From Escherichia coli (GTDB lineage: Bacteria; Pseudomonadota; Gammaproteobacteria; Enterobacterales; Enterobacteriaceae), in assembly GCF_046105845.1 (NCBI RefSeq), contig NZ_CP151004.1: a stretch of DNA of 64,000 nucleotides; one strand, given 5' to 3'. Within the stretch, counting starts at the first letter, position 1; each line of letters starts with the position of its first letter. The notes below the pieces were generated by a model. That model searched no databases. It saw only the letters and a list, made by a program, of their open reading frames with translations, and was not told the origin of the DNA. The translations under genes were made by a program, and so were the position numbers. Positions 44,108 through 57,155 of the stretch are shown here, piece after piece.

Positions 44108-44355
44108 ATATGCAATAATTAATTGCACTGCCCCGCCAGCTATAATCGCGGGGCTTCGTTTTTCAGGGATAACAAAACCCGAAACTTCTTCCATCTGCCA
44201 GCAACAATGCCTCTTCCTCTATAGTGTTCTCCGGATCTACAGCATCCTGAAGTAGCGCGATGTACTCATTGGCTATCTGCGTCAGAAAGTTAAAAACAAT
44301 GTTTTTAACCTATAAAAATGGCGCTGTATTTGCGCCATTTTTATCATTCAATGCA

Positions 44356-50180: not shown

Positions 50181-50240
50181 TCCTTGCGGCCGGGCGTGGA
50201 GAGCGCTTTCTCGCCTCCGGGGGAAATACCCATAAATTAA
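50160..50240 (+). pseudogene. N-terminal fragment of a MobA/MocA-like molybdopterin nucleotidyltransferase
   Basis: MPAPVVLILAAGRGERFLASGGNTHKL has the nucleotidyltransferase P-loop (L-x-x-AAG-x-G-x-R); homology ends after about 27 codons; ATG overlaps paoD 3' end. Confidence 0.4.
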
Positions 50241-50359
50241 GAGAAAAATCTGCAGTAGTCGTTTTAGAAAATCACCTAAATCGTTTAAAAGAGCGCCCAA
50301 CCCATAGTGGGCGCTCATCGCCTTGTGTGACTTATTCAGCAACGCGCACCCTCGCCGGA

Positions 50360-51553
50360 CTAAAGCGCACCGGCCTTCTGGCGTGCGGTAACAAAGGTCA
50401 GTACGCCAGCGCAAAGGAGCAGCACGCTACTCATAGCAAACGTGCTCTGCCAGCCAAGGCGGTCAAATACGATGCCTCCTGCTGTTGATCCAAGGGCGAT
50501 GGCGAGCTGAATCACCGCGACCATGAGCCCGCCTCCGGCTTCGGCGTTGTCAGGCAACGTACGCGCAATCCATGTCCACCATCCGGTTGGCGCGGCGGTG
50601 GCCAGCATGCCCCAGAGTCCTAACAGCAGCGAGACCGTCCAGACGTGATGCCCGGTCAGCATCAGACCGATAGCAATGACGGCCATCAGTCCGGGTATGG
50701 CCATCAGCGTGGGGTAGAATTTTCTGTTGAGAAATGCCGAAACAACCAGCGTGCCAATAAAACCGGCCACGCCGATAATCAGCAAAATCAACGACAAGCC
50801 TAAGGAATTAACCCGTGTCACCGACTCCAGAAACGGGCGCACATAGGTGAATAGTGCAAACTGCCCCATGAAAAACAGGCAGCAGGCTATCATGCCGACC
50901 ACAACCATGCGGCGGCTAAATAAGCGGAATACCGCGCCACATGAAGTGTGGCTTTTATTCGCATCCATGCTTGGCAGGCTGATGCACTGCCAGATAAAGG
51001 CGACAACCGCGATGGGCACCAGGCACAAGAAAGCGCCTCGCCATCCGACCGTAGCCCCCAGATAGCTTCCCAGCGGTGCGGCCACGACCGTCGCCAGCGC
51101 ATTACCGGCGTTGAAAATTGCCAGCGCACGCGTGACCTGATGCTGCGGCACCAGACGAATCGCCGTTGCCGCTGACATCGACCAGAATCCGCCAATAGCC
51201 ACACCAATCATCGCACGACCGACCATATACATCAGATAACTGGAAGCCAGCGCAATAATAAGCCCCGATACGGCCATCAGAACCGTCATCCCCAGCAGCA
51301 GGAACTTACGATTCATCTTTCCAGCTAGCGTTGAAAGCGTCAGGCTGGTCAGAACCGCCAGCGCGCCGGAGATAGCAATCCCCTGCCCTGCCAGCCCCTC
51401 CGTCACGCCTAAATCGCGGGTAATCGGCGTGAGCAGGCTGACGGGCATAAATTCAGAAGCAATCAGCACAAACACGCACAGGGTCATGGCAAAAATACCG
51501 CCCCAGTATGCGCGCTGATGATGAGGTGATAGTGTTTGGCTTAGTGTCGACAT
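50360..51553 (-). CDS. MFS transporter (12 TM, drug/metabolite efflux-like)
   Basis: 397-aa hydrophobic ORF with MFS-like repeated TM pattern. Confidence 0.8.
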   Translation of the reverse strand: MSTLSQTLSPHHQRAYWGGIFAMTLCVFVLIASEFMPVSLLTPITRDLGVTEGLAGQGIAISGALAVLTSLTLSTLAGKMNRKFLLLGMTVLMAVSGLIIALASSYLMYMVGRAMIGVAIGGFWSMSAATAIRLVPQHQVTRALAIFNAGNALATVVAAPLGSYLGATVGWRGAFLCLVPIAVVAFIWQCISLPSMDANKSHTSCGAVFRLFSRRMVVVGMIACCLFFMGQFALFTYVRPFLESVTRVNSLGLSLILLIIGVAGFIGTLVVSAFLNRKFYPTLMAIPGLMAVIAIGLMLTGHHVWTVSLLLGLWGMLATAAPTGWWTWIARTLPDNAEAGGGLMVAVIQLAIALGSTAGGIVFDRLGWQSTFAMSSVLLLCAGVLTFVTARQKAGAL

Positions 51554-51628
51554 AGTGAAATTTCACAAAGATCAGGATAAAAGCCACCAGCCTATGGCCG
51601 GTGGCTTTGCATCAATTCAGGAGAGGTT

Positions 51629-52786
51629 TTATTTCAGTTTGGTCTGGAAAAATTGTTCGAACTTCGCGAAAGGTATTTTTCCGGCCACGTTATCGTACAG
51701 GTCCACGTGATTTGCCCCTGGTACCACCACCAACTCTTTGTCTTTACTGCCAACCGCCTTGTAAGCATCTTCAGCAAAATAGCGTGAATGTGCTTTCTCA
51801 CCGGTCACAATCAGCGTCGGAATGGTGATTTCACTGGCGTAGCTCAACAGCGGCATATTCATAAATGACAGCGGCATCGTTGCCGTCCACGCCCCGGTAG
51901 AGTTAACGGAACGTTCGTGGAAGCCGCGCGGCATGCGATAGTAGTCAAAGAACTCTTTCAGTACCGGATGAGGATTTGCCGGCAGCGTTTCTGGCAGAAT
52001 GCGCTCGCCAGCACTGACCTTGCCGTTGCTATCGACATTAATATCATGACCACCGTGAGCGAACGTTCCGCTCTGCGCATCCTGCCAGCGCTGTTCATTC
52101 AGATATTGCAGAACGGCACGACGGTCGGCGGTAGAATAACGGTCTTTGCCATCCCCCACACCATGACCCATCGCCCGGCTCATGTCATACATCACGCTGG
52201 TAGCTACCGCTTTAACGCGGGTATCCATCGCCACGTCGTTCAGCGCCATGCCGCCCCAGCCACAAATACCGAGCAGCCCGATACGGTTGCGATCTACCTC
52301 TTTTTGCAGCCCTAAGAAATCCACCGCCGCGCTGAAATCTTCAGTGTTGATATCCGGTGAGGCGACGTTTCGCGGATAGCCGCCGCTTTCCCCGGTGTAA
52401 GAAGGATCGAACGCCAGGGTAACAAACCCTCGTTCCGCCAGCGTCTGCGCATACAGGCCGCTGGATTGCTCTTTCACCGCGCCAAATGGCCCACTGACCG
52501 CAATCGCCGCCAGCTTGCGATCGCCACGGTCTTTAGGCAGGTAAAGATCGCCCACTAAGGTGATGCCATATCGGTTCGGGAACGAGACTTTACGGTGATC
52601 GACTTTCTGGCTCTCGGCGAACGTTTTATCCCATTTATCTGTCATGGACACAGGGGCATTAGGATTGGTTGAATCAGCATAACTCATTGTCGTGACCCCA
52701 CTTAATGATGCGAAAAGCAGCATGGTCGGCATCGCGGTTTTTAGCGTTCGGGTGAAGGCTTTCATAAAAATCCCCATAAAAAACAA
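51629..52786 (-). CDS. Secreted alpha/beta hydrolase, dienelactone-hydrolase-like (GxCxG)
   Basis: 385 aa; signal peptide; GICGWGG nucleophile elbow; paralog of 31954-32874. Confidence 0.7.
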   Translation of the reverse strand: MFFMGIFMKAFTRTLKTAMPTMLLFASLSGVTTMSYADSTNPNAPVSMTDKWDKTFAESQKVDHRKVSFPNRYGITLVGDLYLPKDRGDRKLAAIAVSGPFGAVKEQSSGLYAQTLAERGFVTLAFDPSYTGESGGYPRNVASPDINTEDFSAAVDFLGLQKEVDRNRIGLLGICGWGGMALNDVAMDTRVKAVATSVMYDMSRAMGHGVGDGKDRYSTADRRAVLQYLNEQRWQDAQSGTFAHGGHDINVDSNGKVSAGERILPETLPANPHPVLKEFFDYYRMPRGFHERSVNSTGAWTATMPLSFMNMPLLSYASEITIPTLIVTGEKAHSRYFAEDAYKAVGSKDKELVVVPGANHVDLYDNVAGKIPFAKFEQFFQTKLK

Positions 52787-52951
52787 CAGAGAGATACAGG
52801 TTTCCGACGGACAACGCTGCGGTGCTTTACTTTGATGGGGTCATTATAGTGAGCAGAATTAGTGCTGATTAGGGGGCGATTAATGCTAAGATTAATACCA
52901 TATTGTTATAAATTAATGCGGAGATTGCCGGCATGAAGGGGGGATGTTTCA

Positions 52952-53836
52952 ATGGCGAAAAGGGAGAACTACAACGAGCTGTACCTGTTTATGCAGGTGG
53001 TGCGGGAAGGCAGCTTTACCGCAGCGGCTCAGCGGCTGGGTCTTGCTCAGTCAGGAGTCAGCCGTTCTGTTCGCGAGCTTGAAGAAAGGCTCGGCGTCCA
53101 GCTGCTAGTGCGCACCACGCGTAAACTGTCGCTGACACAAGCAGGCGAGCAGCTCTACCAGAAGACGGCATCTGGATTTGAAATGTTAGATCTTGGGCTT
53201 GCCACGCTGGCGCACTATCGAGAGACGCCCTCCGGCACGGTGCGTATCAATGCCAGCCAGCACGCGATTGATAAATGCCTGCTGCCAAAGCTGGCGGTAT
53301 TTAAACAGCGATATCCTGATATCCGGCTTGAACTGATAAATGAGAGCCGGTTCGTCGATATCATCGAGGAAAGATTCGATGCAGGTGTCCGCCTGGGGCC
53401 TGAAGTCGGCCAGGGTATGGTCGCGGTACGCATCACGCCCGATATGGAGATGGCAATTGTGGGGACTCCGGAACATTTTCGTCGCTATGGTTTTCCGCAA
53501 ACCCCGGCGGATTTAAAGGCGCATCCCTGTATCGCCTATCAGTTTGCCGACGGCAGCGTATACCAGTGGGAACTCAATCAGGATGATAAAAAAATCACTC
53601 ATCGCCCTGAAGGGCAATGGGCCTTATCCGACAGCTATATGGAAGCAGAAGCCGCCCGGCTGGGCCTCGGATTGGCCTATGTTCCTGTTGAACTGGTCGC
53701 GGATGATTTAGAACACGGTAAGCTTATCAGGGTGTTGCAGCGTTACAGCCTGCGAATGGAGGGATTGTTTCTCTATTACCCTCATCGCAACGTCTCCCCC
53801 GCCCTGCGGATGGTCATTGATACATTGAAAATCTGA
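52952..53836 (+). CDS. LysR-family transcriptional regulator
   Basis: 294 aa; LysR HTH (LYLFMQVVREGSFTAAAQRLGLAQSGVSRSVRELEERLG); divergent from hydrolase gene. Confidence 0.8.
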   Translation: MAKRENYNELYLFMQVVREGSFTAAAQRLGLAQSGVSRSVRELEERLGVQLLVRTTRKLSLTQAGEQLYQKTASGFEMLDLGLATLAHYRETPSGTVRINASQHAIDKCLLPKLAVFKQRYPDIRLELINESRFVDIIEERFDAGVRLGPEVGQGMVAVRITPDMEMAIVGTPEHFRRYGFPQTPADLKAHPCIAYQFADGSVYQWELNQDDKKITHRPEGQWALSDSYMEAEAARLGLGLAYVPVELVADDLEHGKLIRVLQRYSLRMEGLFLYYPHRNVSPALRMVIDTLKI

Positions 53837-54061
53837 ACGTTAATAACGACCGACTCTTCACTGTGCAACATTGTGTCAGGTAGTCCCTCTGCGTTCAATT
53901 CCAGGGTCTGCTTTGAGCGAGAAAGAGGGGACTATCCAGCAATGGAGATCACCCAAAAGAAAAAACCACCTGGCTCCCTCGACAACCTTCATCCAGGCAT
54001 TTAGCCTCAATCAACATTTTTATATCTGTCAGGTTACTTCATGATGAAAACTGATCATTAT

Positions 54062-54315
54062 CGTTGTTTTTGTTGCAATAGTAGAATACGCGTATTTATT
54101 CCTCCATCTCTATTAATAACGGCAATAAACTGTTCACTTCACTGATATTTAAAATATGTATCCTTTTCAAGCTGTTCAGCGGCGTAAGAAAAAGTATTAA
54201 TTATGAATTCGACGATTTAACCATATCTGTCTGATTGGTAATCATCCGTGATTAATGTTGGTCTATTGATTACGCCAGCATTAACCGCTTAGGGATGTAT
54301 TCTTCCTGTTGATAT
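54062..54315 (+). repeat. Degenerate paralogous copy of the ykgR 3' half fused to the ykgO 3' end plus downstream sequence
   Basis: About 90% identity over about 100 bp to 34776-34885 and about 75-80% over about 145 bp to 35561-35705, by eye; ykgM/ykgO and the Zur box are missing from this copy. Confidence 0.7.
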
Positions 54316-54607
54316 CCCCCCCTCGAAAAAGAGAGAAAATAAAACTGTGTCCAATATTACTCTACCACTCCAGACCGAAGCATCGGTGGGATTAGCAGGA
54401 CGACTGGTACAGAAGGATGGTATAGCGTCATTTGTCGGGCATTCCATTGCCATAATAATGACAATTTTGAATCAATAGACATGCTTCTTGATCATGTCTT
54501 AAAAATTAGACCATGAGCCTTACGAAGCATCATTTTTACTGACTGGTATTAACTTTGCTATCATATAAACTCTGTTCTTAAAAACGCGCCCAGAATTTAT
54601 ATGATTT

Positions 54608-54745
54608 TCATTGTTTTTCTGCCTGTAAAGAAATTTCTTTTTCAGTGCTGTCGATGGTTGAACCGACGGCAGTAATCGTTTTGGCGACGCTACTGAAGGA
54701 TATTAAAGACAGTGTAACCACAACAATTAAAGAATAGATAATATT
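54608..54745 (-). CDS. Hypothetical small hydrophobic protein (about 45 aa from MNIIYSLIVVVTLSLISF)
   Basis: ORF only; single predicted TM/signal-like segment; no homology recognised. Confidence 0.2.
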   Translation of the reverse strand, partial: NIIYSLIVVVTLSLISFSSVAKTITAVGSTIDSTEKEISLQAEKQ

Positions 54746-54963
54746 CATGCTAATTCTCCTGACAATTGAGAGGATGAGTTTTATATACAAAGGCATTAAA
54801 TATGAGTCATGTTTACTCCCTGTGAAAATAATCTTACTGTAATTAAACCTTCATCTCCTTCGGAGTGAGCAATGCATAATATAATGCATCTTGCTATTCA
54901 AAACAGTGGATATAAATTTTCCTCGCGACCTATTTAATAAAACGTGAATATAAAAGTTAGTCT

Positions 54964-55515
54964 TCAGTTTGCAGATGCAGTAGGTCTGATGGTAATTTCG
55001 GTTGTATCAACTGTTTCGGGAGATTCAATAATATGCCTTACAGCACGGGCAATATCCGCGGGTTGAAGTGCAACAGAACGGTAGGCGTCCATTGACTTCA
55101 TGGTTTCCACATGGGTAATGGTTGAAGCCAGTTCACTTTCTACAACCCCAGGATTTACGCAGGTCACACGGATTTTCGAGCTTTCCTGCCGTAAGCCATC
55201 CGAAATAGCCCGTACTGCAAATTTTGATGCACAATAGACTGCGCCTGTGGGCACAACAGAAAGGACACCAATAGAACCAAGATTGATTATCTGACCGGAA
55301 CCCTGTGCTTCCATCACCGGAAGTACAGCGCCAATTCCCCAAAGTACGCCTTTGATATTCACGTCAATAGTGAGTTCCCATTCATCTTGTTTTCCTGCTG
55401 CAAGCGGTGAAAGCGGCATAACGCCCGCATTATTGATAAGAACATCAACTCGCCCCCAGCTATCCAGCGCTGCTTGCACGAAATCGGCCATGGACTGCCG
55501 GTCTGTGACATCCAA
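54964..55515 (-). pseudogene. 5'-truncated short-chain dehydrogenase/reductase (SDR) gene
   Basis: Contains SDR catalytic region (NNAG, YCASK) but lacks the N-terminal Rossmann TGxxxGxG segment; reading frame terminates at the junction with the integrase fragment. Confidence 0.6.
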
Positions 55516-55686
55516 CTTGCATTTTCAGAAATGGGAGGCTGGGAGTCTATCGAAATGGTTCGTCGATATGCTCACCTCGCGCCTAATCACCTTACCGAAC
55601 ACGCACGGCAAATAGACTCAGTCCTGAACCCATCGGTCCCAAATTTGTCCCAGTCAAAAAATAAGAAAGGTACTAATGATGTGTAA
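55516..55686 (+). pseudogene. C-terminal fragment of a tyrosine (P4-type) integrase abutting thrW
   Basis: [20 protein letters not shown] is a typical integrase C-terminus including the catalytic Tyr region; ends 15 bp from the tRNA 3' end; no N-terminal or core domain present. Confidence 0.6.
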
Positions 55687-55700
55687 CTTATTGATTTAAA

Positions 55701-55776
55701 TGGTGCCGATAATAGGAGTCGAACCTACGACCTTCGCATTACGAATGCGCTGCTCTACCAACTGAGCTATATCGGC
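55701..55776 (-). tRNA. thrW: tRNA-Thr (anticodon CGU)
   Basis: 76-nt cloverleaf read on minus strand: GCCGATATAGCTCAGTTGGTAGAGCAGCGCATTCGTAATGCGAAGGTCGTAGGTTCGACTCCTATTATCGGCACCA; anticodon loop contains CGT. Confidence 0.93.
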
Positions 55777-55890
55777 CCTGAAAGGACATGTTCACGAACG
55801 TGAATCACGGTGGACAAGGTTAAAACTAACCGGGCGATGCGTCAATGGCCTTGTGAATCAAATGGCTACTTTTGCATCACCCGGTTTTAT

Positions 55891-57144
55891 TTACGCACGA
55901 ATGGTGTAATCACCAATGCCGATCCACTTGTAAGTGGTCAGTGCTTCCAGCCCCATTGGGCCACGCGCGTGGAGTTTTTGTGTGCTTACCGCCACTTCCG
56001 CACCCAGACCAAACTGGCCGCCGTCGGTAAAACGCGTAGAGGCGTTAACGTAAACAGCGGACGAATCCACTTCGTTAACAAAACGCTGGGCGTTGCGCAT
56101 ATCGCGGGTCAGGATCGCATCGGAGTGTTGTGTGCCGTGTTCACGAATATGGGTGATGGCATCGTCAAGATCGCTGACGATTTTGACGTTCAAATCTAAT
56201 GACAGAAACTCATCGTCATACTCTTCCGCTTTCACAGCCACCACCTTCGCGGGGCCTGTCTGCAACTGCGCCAGCGCAGCTGCATCTGCGTGTAATGTCA
56301 CGCCGCTTTCCGCCATTTGTTTGCTTAATGCGGGCAGGAAGCTGTCGGCGATGTTTTTATTCACCAGCAACGTTTCAACCGTATTACATGTGCTCGGACG
56401 CTGGGTTTTCGCGTTGACGATTACTTTCAGGGCTTCAGCGATCTCTGCACTTTCATCAACATAAATATGGCATACGCCTATACCACCTGTGATCACCGGG
56501 ATCGTCGACTGTTCGCGGCACAGTTTATGCAGGCCAGCGCCACCACGCGGGATCAGCATGTCGATGTATTTATCCATACGCAGCATTTCACTGACCAGCA
56601 CACGGTCAGGATTATCAATCGCCTGCACGGCACCCGCCGGTAAGCCGCAGGATTTCAGGGCGTCCTGAATCACCGCCACCGTTGCAGCGTTAGTGCGACA
56701 CGTTTCTTTGCCGCCGCGCAGGATCACCGCGTTACCTGTTTTCAGGCACAGCGAAGCGACATCTACCGTCACGTTCGGGCGCGCTTCATAAATCACGCCA
56801 ATCACCCCCAGCGGCACGCGACGGCGCTCCAGACGCAGACCACTGTCCAGTACGCCGCCATCGATTACCTGCCCCACCGGATCGGCGAGATTACACACCT
56901 GACGCACATCGTCGGCGATGTCTTTCAGCCGTGCGGGCGTCAGTGCCAGACGGTCAAGCATCGCTTCGCTAAGGCCATTGGCACGCGCGTCAGCAACATC
57001 CTGGGCGTTAGCGTTGAGGATGATTTCGCTTTGTGCTTCCAGTTCATCGGCGATTTTTTCCAGCACACGATTTTTTTCGCGGCTGGAGAGTTGCGCTAAT
57101 TTATACGAGGCTTGCTTTGCGGCAATGCCCATTTGTTCCAGCAT
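55891..57144 (-). CDS. proA: Gamma-glutamyl phosphate reductase ProA
   Basis: 417 aa; sequence matches recalled ProA. Confidence 0.93.
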
Positions 57145-57155
57145 CGGCCAGCTCC

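What the first reader, a model, noticed from the sequence alone, without database searches (positions are those of the whole stretch)
54964..55776. thrW attachment site carries only an integrase C-terminal remnant fused to a truncated SDR gene
tRNA-Thr (thrW) is the known integration site of the CP4-6 prophage in K-12. Here no prophage is present. Only about 57 codons of an integrase C-terminus ([20 protein letters not shown]) remain, ending 15 bp from the tRNA 3' end, and this fragment abuts a 5'-truncated SDR gene with a junction near 55515. This looks like a scar from integration and subsequent deletion, and it marks the boundary of the accessory block to the left.
Basis: partly seen in the sequence, partly recalled or inferred. 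Interest (0 to 1): 0.55.

Follow-up and report, generated by a model that had tools for sequence, protein, structure and literature searches.

The report
Dead prophage scar beside thrW tRNA
Next to the threonine tRNA gene thrW lie the last 56 codons of a Shigella-phage-type (SfII/P22-like) integrase, joined head-to-head to a dehydrogenase gene that has lost its first 57 codons; it is an ordinary, inactive deletion scar left by a decayed prophage, and it is already annotated as such in related E. coli genomes.

Summary
tRNA-Thr(CGU) lies at 55701-55776(-) beside proA and proB. An integrase 3' fragment (55516-55686, +) ends 14 nt from the tRNA 3' end. It abuts a 5'-truncated SDR gene (54964-55517, -). 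The junction is at 55516/55517 and shows 2 nt of microhomology (CT).

The interpretation needs correction. The fragment does not come from CP4-6: it shows no similarity to K-12 IntF. It is 97-98% identical in DNA to the int 3' end plus attP of Shigella serotype-converting phages SfII, SfV, SfI and SfIV (83% to P22). The match runs exactly through the published 46-bp att core inside thrW.

The two fragments meet at their truncated 5' ends on opposite strands, so no fusion protein is possible. The deletion removed the prophage, its attR, a LysR gene (the full-length form of K-12 yagP) and SDR codons 1-57.

The same junction occurs in 19 of 5,426 complete E. coli genomes, where PGAP already calls both pieces partial pseudogenes. 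A longer version of the same mosaic int remnant occurs in 803 genomes. In five of the 19 junction-bearing genomes thrW has been reused by another element.

The 5.4-kb block to the left is chromosomal flank that K-12 lost, not an inserted island. Verdict: real, ordinary and already known. Interest is low.

The parts
54964..55517 (-). 5'-truncated SDR-family oxidoreductase pseudogene. It keeps codons 58-240 plus the stop, and two bases of codon 57. It keeps the YxxxK active-site motif (YCASK) but lacks the N-terminal TGASSGIG NAD(P)-binding motif, the start codon and the promoter.
   Evidence: The full-length 240-aa gene is in L002. Homology ends at 55517. tblastn covers aa 57-240 at 97%. NCBIfam SDR profiles match only from about position 53-62. 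PGAP labels it 'SDR family oxidoreductase, incomplete, missing N-terminus' in L001, L003 and L006.
55516..55517 (.). Deletion junction: the dinucleotide CT is shared by both parental sequences (2-nt microhomology). There is no IS element and no repeat.
   Evidence: Alignments of the window with the full-length SDR (L002) and with the longer int remnant (L007).
55516..55686 (+). 3' remnant of a P22/SfII-type tyrosine integrase gene, 56 codons plus the stop. By alignment to full-length SfII Int, its YAHL motif (...RRYAHL) lies in the segment expected to carry the catalytic tyrosine, and the region upstream of it, including the HDLRH motif, is missing. It is a mosaic: 55516-55527 follows an older E. 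coli remnant allele, and 55528-55686 is SfII-like.
   Evidence: 97.3-97.7% DNA identity to int of SfII, SfV, SfI, SfIV and phi458, and 82.6% to P22. 50/54 aa identical to SfII Int residues 334-387. PGAP labels it 'integrase, incomplete, missing N-terminus'. No similarity to IntF.
55687..55700 (.). 14-nt spacer between the int stop codon and the thrW 3' end. It is shared by the phage attP flank, by the thrW 3' flank in K-12, and by the partial thrW copies of K-12 and L002.
   Evidence: BLAST of window 55683-55752 against L004 (two sites) and L002. The SfII match runs through it.
55701..55746 (-). 46-bp att core (the 3' part of thrW), intact.
   Evidence: It is the exact reverse complement of the 46-base attP/attL/attR core published for SfI, SfII, SfV, SfX and P22 (PMC3636060). 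The phage DNA match ends at 55746. It is the only copy in the window.
55701..55776 (-). thrW, an intact tRNA-Thr(CGU) gene.
   Evidence: ARAGORN. Rfam tRNA, 71.8 bits. Matches K-12 thrW with proA adjacent.

Best explanation
This is an inert scar of prophage decay at the thrW integration hotspot.

Shown:
- A lambdoid temperate phage with a P22/SfII-type integrase left its int 3' end directly next to the rebuilt tRNA, transcribed towards it. That is the arrangement these phages produce when they recombine through the 46-bp core at the 3' end of thrW.
- Only the last 171 nt of int remain. They are joined to codon 57/58 of a chromosomal SDR gene on the opposite strand.

Inferred:
- One or more illegitimate-recombination deletions made the joint. 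The final one used a 2-nt CT microhomology and no IS element.
- The deletions removed the rest of the prophage, its distal attR, the LysR regulator gene that flanks thrW in other strains (the full-length form of K-12 yagP), and the promoter and first 57 codons of the SDR gene.

Both fragments lack a start codon, a promoter and essential motifs, so neither encodes anything functional. thrW and its att core are intact, so the site can still accept new elements. The event is old and inherited: the identical junction is shared with a small clade of E. coli about 1-2% diverged from this genome.
For: 1. Int remnant. DNA identity is 97.3-97.7% to int plus attP of SfII, SfV, SfI, SfIV and phi458, stopping exactly 46 nt into thrW. 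The protein is 93% identical to the SfII Int C-terminus. The SfII gene order xis-int-attP-gtrA and the published 46-base core (PMC3636060) fit the geometry.
2. SDR gene. A full-length SDR followed by a LysR gene and a partial thrW copy lies in L002. Window homology stops at 55517.
3. Absences. No other Int, Xis or IntF piece and no second att core occur in the window.
4. Decay series at the same site. O157 has a 921-bp int partial with an IS-ridden lambdoid remnant. 803 genomes carry a 204-207-nt int remnant. The window has 171 nt.
5. Shared junction. 19 of 5,426 genomes match through the junction in a single aligned piece, and PGAP calls both pieces partial. The window is only 98.0-99.0% identical to them across the flanks.
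6. Site reuse. In sister genomes a P4-like satellite or a Trb-type conjugative element has integrated at thrW and displaced the scar together with a short thrW 3' piece.
7. Signals. No promoter-like or terminator-like sites were found in 54800-55900.
Against: The number and order of the deletion steps cannot be recovered.
- No full-length integrase carrying the 55516-55527 allele appeared among the listed matches. Every listed match that begins at 55516 is annotated as an integrase pseudogene fragment in the annotations inspected, and the matches annotated as full-length recombinase/integrase genes begin at 55528. The progenitor phage is therefore not identified.
- The window's remnant shares a mosaic breakpoint (55528) with the longer remnant of 803 genomes. 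The last deletion may therefore have started from an already decayed remnant, not from an intact prophage.
- Absence of expression or function was not tested experimentally.
Confidence: 0.88

Rival explanations
1. Two-stage origin. The ancestor already carried the widespread longer int remnant (204-207 nt, as in strain U1) next to thrW. A later, unrelated deletion trimmed 36 nt more of it and ran into the SDR gene. The remnant itself would be a chimera, made when an incoming SfII-like phage recombined homologously with an older resident int remnant.
For: The window and L007 are identical over 55516-55560 and share the breakpoint at 55528. To its left both resemble the older ST131-type remnant (9/12) and not SfII (3/12). 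To its right both equal SfII (33/33), while the ST131-type remnant scores 25/33. The longer remnant occurs in 803 genomes.
Against: In all 803 genomes the longer remnant is joined to a helix-turn-helix gene fragment. In the two loci inspected, L007 and L008, it sits in a satellite-like defence island and the SDR gene is absent. No direct intermediate (SDR-LysR ... long int remnant) was seen. Phage-population mosaicism would explain the chimera equally well. This is a refinement of the main explanation, not a contradiction of it.
Confidence: 0.45
2. The remnant is what is left of the CP4-6 cryptic prophage or of its integrase IntF.
For: thrW is the CP4-6 site in K-12 (annotation).
Against: There is no similarity between the fragment and IntF (E = 5.3), and tblastn of IntF and of the IntF-like protein finds nothing in the window. 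IntF lies at the distal end of its island beside the partial thrW copy and is transcribed inward. That is the opposite geometry. In L009 the int remnant lies outside the IntF-type island, beyond its distal partial thrW copy.
Confidence: 0.01
3. The scar reached this lineage by homologous recombination of a chromosomal segment from another E. coli lineage, not by vertical descent.
For: Genomes with the junction include diverse serotypes and hosts. For the proBA-phoE flank the best match (98.9%) is a genome that is not among the 19.
Against: For the left flank the 19 scar-bearing genomes are exactly the 19 best matches (98.0-99.0%), and the next best is 96.8%. Divergence between the window and L001 is uniform over 12.9 kb (98.4%), with no sharp recombination tract around the scar. 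No whole-genome phylogeny was available.
Confidence: 0.15
4. The int remnant is retained because it has a function, for example a small protein from ORF 55474-55686, a 3' processing or termination signal for thrW, or a homology patch that promotes loss of incoming SfII-type prophages.
For: An int 3' segment next to thrW is very common: at least 80% of the 201-nt query is covered in 2,035 genomes. The mosaic structure is compatible with recombination between remnants and incoming phages.
Against: K-12 and L002 have thrW or its copy with only 18 nt of this flank, so thrW does not need the remnant. No promoter-like or terminator-like sites were found. The upstream part of ORF 55474-55686 is antisense SDR sequence. 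The remnant lacks all of Int upstream of residue ~332, including the HDLRH motif. Its frequency is explained by phage prevalence and by deletions being unable to extend into thrW and proA.
Confidence: 0.04

Closest known systems
attL junction of Shigella flexneri serotype-converting phages (SfI, SfII, SfV, SfX, SfIV) and Salmonella phage P22 integrated at thrW
   Same: The 46-bp att core in the 3' end of thrW is the same. The int 3' end lies 14 nt from the tRNA and is transcribed towards it. DNA identity to the int 3' end is 97-98% for the Sf phages and 83% for P22.
   Different: Only the last 171 nt of the 1,164-nt int gene remain. xis, the gtr genes, the rest of the phage and the distal att copy are absent. 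The 12 nt at 55516-55527 follow a different int allele.
Integrase remnant next to thrW in 803 complete E. coli genomes (e.g. strains U1, 28Eco12, JJ1886)
   Same: The int allele and the mosaic point at 55528 are the same, and the sequence is identical from 55516 onward. The position beside thrW, or beside a displaced thrW 3' piece, is also the same.
   Different: Those remnants are 204-207 nt long and are joined on the left to a helix-turn-helix gene fragment (in L007 and L008, part of a satellite-like defence island), not to the SDR gene. The window's remnant is 36 nt shorter.
Degraded lambdoid prophage at thrW in E. coli O157:H7 (L011)
   Same: The site is the same, and so are the int orientation and the 3' sequence (97% identity from 55528).
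   Different: O157 keeps 921 bp of int plus cI/cro/cII-like genes and IS elements. It is an earlier stage of decay.
CP4-6 cryptic prophage of E. coli K-12 (thrW ... intF, partial thrW copy, yagP)
   Same: It uses the same tRNA gene. The neighbouring chromosomal flank also carries a deletion scar: yagP is a truncated LysR gene.
   Different: The integrase is unrelated, and it lies at the distal end of the island. No CP4-6 gene is present in the window.

Membership tests
P22/SfII-type lambdoid tyrosine integrase gene (remnant of) | Sequence homology to the int gene of thrW-integrating P22/Sf phages | tested here: met
   97.3-97.7% DNA identity over 219 nt, E = 4e-101. 50/54 aa identical, E = 9e-36.
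P22/SfII-type lambdoid tyrosine integrase gene (remnant of) | The int 3' end lies immediately next to the 46-bp att core in thrW | tested here: met
   The stop codon is at 55684-55686 and the core is at 55701-55746, identical to the published core.
P22/SfII-type lambdoid tyrosine integrase gene (remnant of) | A complete open reading frame (about 387 aa) containing the whole catalytic domain, including the conserved HDLRH motif | tested here: not met
   Only residues ~332-387 are present. The HDLRH motif and everything upstream are absent from the window. It is a pseudogene fragment, not a functional member.
CP4-6 / IntF-type integrase | Sequence similarity to K-12 IntF or to the IntF-like integrase of L002 | tested here: not met
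   BLASTP E = 5.3. tblastn finds no hit in the window.
Classical short-chain dehydrogenase/reductase (SDR) | N-terminal TGxxxGxG dinucleotide-binding motif | tested here: not met
   The motif TGASSGIG lies at residues 8-15 of the full-length protein. The window starts at residue 58. Profiles match only from position ~53-62.
Classical short-chain dehydrogenase/reductase (SDR) | YxxxK active-site motif and overall homology | tested here: met
   YCASK is present in the retained part. NCBIfam SDR models score E = 8e-42.
Integrated element bounded by attL and attR | A second, direct copy of the thrW 3' core marking the distal end | tested here: not met
   The 46-mer and the 18-mer of the core each occur once in the window, even allowing 3 mismatches. 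No bounded element remains.

The most novel reading that the evidence does not exclude
The int remnant beside thrW might not be purely passive. Its about 170 nt of near-identity to the int 3' end of incoming SfII-type phages, lying in direct orientation next to the att core, could act as a RecA-dependent 'exit ramp' that deletes newly integrated prophages. That would explain the chimeric allele with a sharp breakpoint at 55528 that the window shares with the longer remnant (803 genomes), and it would make such scars modulators of lysogen stability at tRNA hotspots.
Probability: 0.05. Interest if true: 0.4.

Novelty: already known. Interest (0 to 1): 0.1.

Why it matters
It matters little beyond correct annotation.
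- Both fragments should be labelled pseudogenes.
- The integrase piece should be attributed to an SfII/P22-type phage, not to CP4-6.
- thrW in this genome should be regarded as an empty, still usable attB.

The scar can serve as a lineage marker, because the identical junction occurs in only 19 of 5,426 complete genomes. It also illustrates how nested deletions erode a tRNA integration hotspot: the window and K-12 have overlapping but different deletions in the same flank.

Tried and rejected
1. I first read the 10 nt at 55518-55527 as untemplated filler, because SfII homology begins only at 55528. This was rejected: the same bases continue a longer int remnant in many E. coli genomes.
2. CP4-6/IntF origin was rejected by BLASTP and tblastn.
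3. A duplicated thrW 3' end (attR) was searched for in the window with up to 3 mismatches. None was found.
4. Translational fusion or a hidden full-length gene in another frame was rejected. The fragments lie on opposite strands, a stop codon lies two codons upstream of the SDR remnant, and no other Int or SDR pieces exist.
5. The scan for promoter-like and terminator-like signals around the scar found none. Rfam found only the tRNA there.
6. The junction 30-mer was searched in 100,044 GTDB species-representative genomes, with no hit. This shows only that the junction is absent from the representative genome of every species.
7. The source strain could not be identified. No complete E. coli genome exceeds 98.9-99.0% identity over the flanks.

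Full report
**What is at the coordinates**

The window carries a single tRNA gene, tRNA-Thr(CGT), at 55701-55776 on the minus strand (ARAGORN; Rfam). To its right lie proA and proB, then phoE, crl, frsA, gpt and pepD. This is the thrW locus of E. coli (K-12 annotation).

To its left are two short reading frames. One is 54964-55515 on the minus strand, 183 aa with a TTG start. The other is 55474-55686 on the plus strand and ends in ...[22 protein letters not shown]....

**The SDR piece**

In other E. coli genomes, for example strain 2020CK-00188 (L002), the same gene is 723 bp and encodes 240 aa. It starts MDKVILITGASSGIGEG....

- Window homology to it runs from the stop codon up to 55517 and then ends abruptly.
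- The window keeps codons 58-240, at 97% amino-acid identity.
- It lacks the first 57 codons, which include the TGASSGIG dinucleotide-binding motif. The YCASK active-site motif is retained.
- NCBIfam SDR profiles match the remnant only from about profile position 53-62.
- Reading the SDR frame beyond the junction meets a stop codon two codons upstream.

**The integrase piece**

Window 55528-55746 is 97.3-97.7% identical to the 3' end of int plus attP of Shigella phages SfII, SfV, SfI and SfIV and of E. coli phage phi458. It is 82.6% identical to P22. At the protein level 50 of 54 residues match SfII Int residues 334-387.

The DNA match continues through the stop codon (55684-55686) and a 14-nt spacer, and then exactly 46 nt into thrW. 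Those 46 bases are the reverse complement of the att core published for SfI, SfII, SfV, SfX and P22 (PMC3636060).

In SfII the gene order is xis-int-attP-gtrA, with the int 3' end next to attP. Integration at thrW therefore places the int 3' end against the rebuilt tRNA, as seen here.

The fragment has no detectable similarity to IntF, the CP4-6 integrase of K-12 (E = 5.3). Neither IntF nor the IntF-like protein of L002 finds anything in the window. In K-12 and in L002 the IntF-type gene lies at the far end of its island, next to a partial thrW copy, and is transcribed inward.

**The exact junction**

I first read the 10 nt at 55518-55527 (TGCATTTTCA) as filler, because SfII homology starts only at 55528. 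That was wrong.

Among the listed matches, a first group matches the window from 55516 onward. In these genomes the bases continue a longer integrase remnant of 204-207 nt, which reads [22 protein letters not shown].... This longer remnant, together with its left-hand neighbour, occurs in 803 of 5,426 genomes.

The window's int remnant is thus 55516-55686, that is 56 codons plus the stop. SDR homology ends at 55517 and int homology begins at 55516. The two parents share the dinucleotide CT at the joint. This microhomology is too short to be diagnostic but is compatible with illegitimate recombination. No IS end or repeat is present.

The two fragments are on opposite strands and meet at their truncated 5' ends. 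There is no fusion protein and neither has a start. No promoter-like or terminator-like sites were found in 54800-55900.

**What was lost**

In L002 the SDR gene is followed by:
- a 900-bp LysR gene;
- a 64-nt partial thrW copy (46 nt of tRNA plus 18 nt of flank);
- an IntF-type island.

The SDR and LysR genes are therefore chromosomal flank outside the att-bounded elements. K-12 yagP corresponds to the 3' part of that LysR gene. K-12 has its own deletion from the end of paoD into this gene. It removed the MFS transporter, the alpha/beta hydrolase, the first LysR gene, the small hypothetical gene and the SDR gene.

The window's deletion is different but overlaps it. It removed SDR codons 1-57, the LysR gene, the distal att copy and everything of the prophage except 171 nt. 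The window holds no second copy of the att core and no other fragment of Int or Xis.

Window 50236-55682 is absent from K-12. At least 80% of the 50300-54960 part of it is present in 907 genomes and part of it in 3,289. It is variable backbone, not an inserted island.

**Distribution and age**

The complete junction (54900-55800) is found in 19 of 5,426 complete E. coli genomes. Each matches in a single aligned piece across the joint, so the breakpoints are the same. In all of them PGAP annotates an 'SDR family oxidoreductase' and an 'integrase', and in the three loci inspected both are flagged 'incomplete, missing N-terminus'.

The window is only 98.0-99.0% identical to these genomes. Divergence is uniform over 12.9 kb. 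No complete E. coli genome exceeds 98.9% identity over proBA-phoE. For the left flank the 19 scar-bearing genomes are the 19 best matches, and the next best is 96.8%.

The most economical reading is one old deletion inherited by a small clade to which the window's strain is a somewhat distant relative. Transfer by homologous recombination is not excluded. The junction 30-mer is absent from 100,044 species-representative genomes.

**The site is still in use**

In five of the 19 genomes the match stops inside the tRNA 3' end.
- In strain Z1323HEC0462 it stops after 17-19 nt. An element of about 11.7 kb follows, which I interpret as a P4-like satellite: YoeB/YefM, ogr/delta-like, DUF927, an Icd-like gene, AlpA, and an integrase gene next to the intact thrW and transcribed away from it. 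It separates the scar from thrW-proA.
- In strain 19KM1776 it stops after 49 nt, followed by a site-specific integrase and Trb/Tra conjugation genes.

In strain p4A (L009), whose remnant is the same 89%-identity type found in other listed genomes, an older and more decayed int remnant plus a 45-nt thrW piece lie at the distal end of an IntF-type island. In that lineage the P22-type phage came and decayed before the IntF-type island arrived.

E. coli O157 shows an earlier stage of decay at the same site: 921 bp of int, cI/cro/cII-like genes and IS elements.

**A detail of the remnant**

The remnant is a mosaic.

| Segment | vs L007 | vs SfII | vs older p4A-type remnant (L009) |
|---|---|---|---|
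| 55516-55527 | 12/12 | 3/12 | 9/12 |
| 55528-55560 | 33/33 | 33/33 | 25/33 |

The shared breakpoint at 55528 ties the window's remnant to the widespread longer remnant. It suggests either mosaicism among phages or recombination between an old resident remnant and an incoming SfII-like phage. This is inference. No full-length integrase with the left-hand allele appeared among the listed matches.

**Verdict**

The scar interpretation is right in outline but wrong in attribution: the remnant comes from an SfII/P22-type phage, not from CP4-6. It is also imprecise about 'fused' and about the 'accessory block'.

This is a textbook product of prophage decay at a well-known tRNA hotspot. thrW is listed among the most frequently targeted tDNAs in E. 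coli (PMC7545054). The scar is already annotated as pseudogenes in RefSeq genomes. Nothing suggests function.

I rate it as already known, with low interest. The only mildly novel reading left open is that such remnants promote recombinational loss of incoming phages. I put that at about 5%.

Noticed in passing
window 54518-54796 (-): The small hypothetical gene just left of the SDR remnant is intact (92 aa) in strain 2012C-4221. In the window it has an in-frame stop after codon 62 and the downstream reading no longer matches. It is probably a pseudogene too. The region 54000-55000 is AT-rich (34-37% GC).
   Followed up: partly
window 54048-54164; L001 5149-5217: There is a 117-nt partial copy (about 91% identity) of the ykgR region. 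The intact gene lies about 20 kb to the left in related genomes. PGAP annotates the copy as 'small membrane protein YkgR, incomplete'. It looks like an old partial duplication in the thrW flank.
   Followed up: no
K-12 locus L004 38382-38792 (yagP) compared with L002 8887-9786: K-12 yagP is the 3' remnant of a full-length LysR gene. K-12 has a deletion of about 6.1 kb from the end of paoD into this gene, which removed the MFS, hydrolase, LysR and SDR genes that the window retains. It is a second, independent deletion scar in the same flank.
   Followed up: yes
L006 (NZ_CP151009.1) 6802-6913: PGAP annotates a 112-nt 'tRNA-Ser' over what is actually the displaced 49-nt 3' piece of thrW plus the end of an integrated Trb-type conjugative element. 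This is probably an annotation artefact or a chimeric pseudo-tRNA.
   Followed up: partly
L007/L008 791-6918 (strains U1, 28Eco12): In the two loci inspected with the longer int remnant, the space between the ykgR fragment and thrW holds a small island. It carries an AbiEi/AbiEii toxin-antitoxin pair, a 1,069-aa RNA-directed DNA polymerase (possibly a defence-associated reverse transcriptase), an ash-family gene and a broken helix-turn-helix gene.
   Followed up: no
window 44150-44350 (-): Rfam family IS009 (RF02111) matches at 190 bits between ykgJ and yagU. It is the only non-tRNA RNA family found in the window.
   Followed up: no
window 29495/29494 versus L010 22071-32472: Strain 2012C-4221 has a 10.4-kb insertion with filamentous-phage-like genes (replication endonuclease, Zot-domain protein, GspD-like secretin) plus an IS110-family transposase. 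It splits an aldo/keto reductase gene. The window lacks the insertion and is continuous there.
   Followed up: no
window 55777-59700 and 50300-54960: No complete E. coli genome among the 5,426 is more than 98.9-99.0% identical to the window over these segments, and K-12 is 97.7%. The source strain appears to belong to a lineage not represented among complete RefSeq E. coli genomes.
   Followed up: partly
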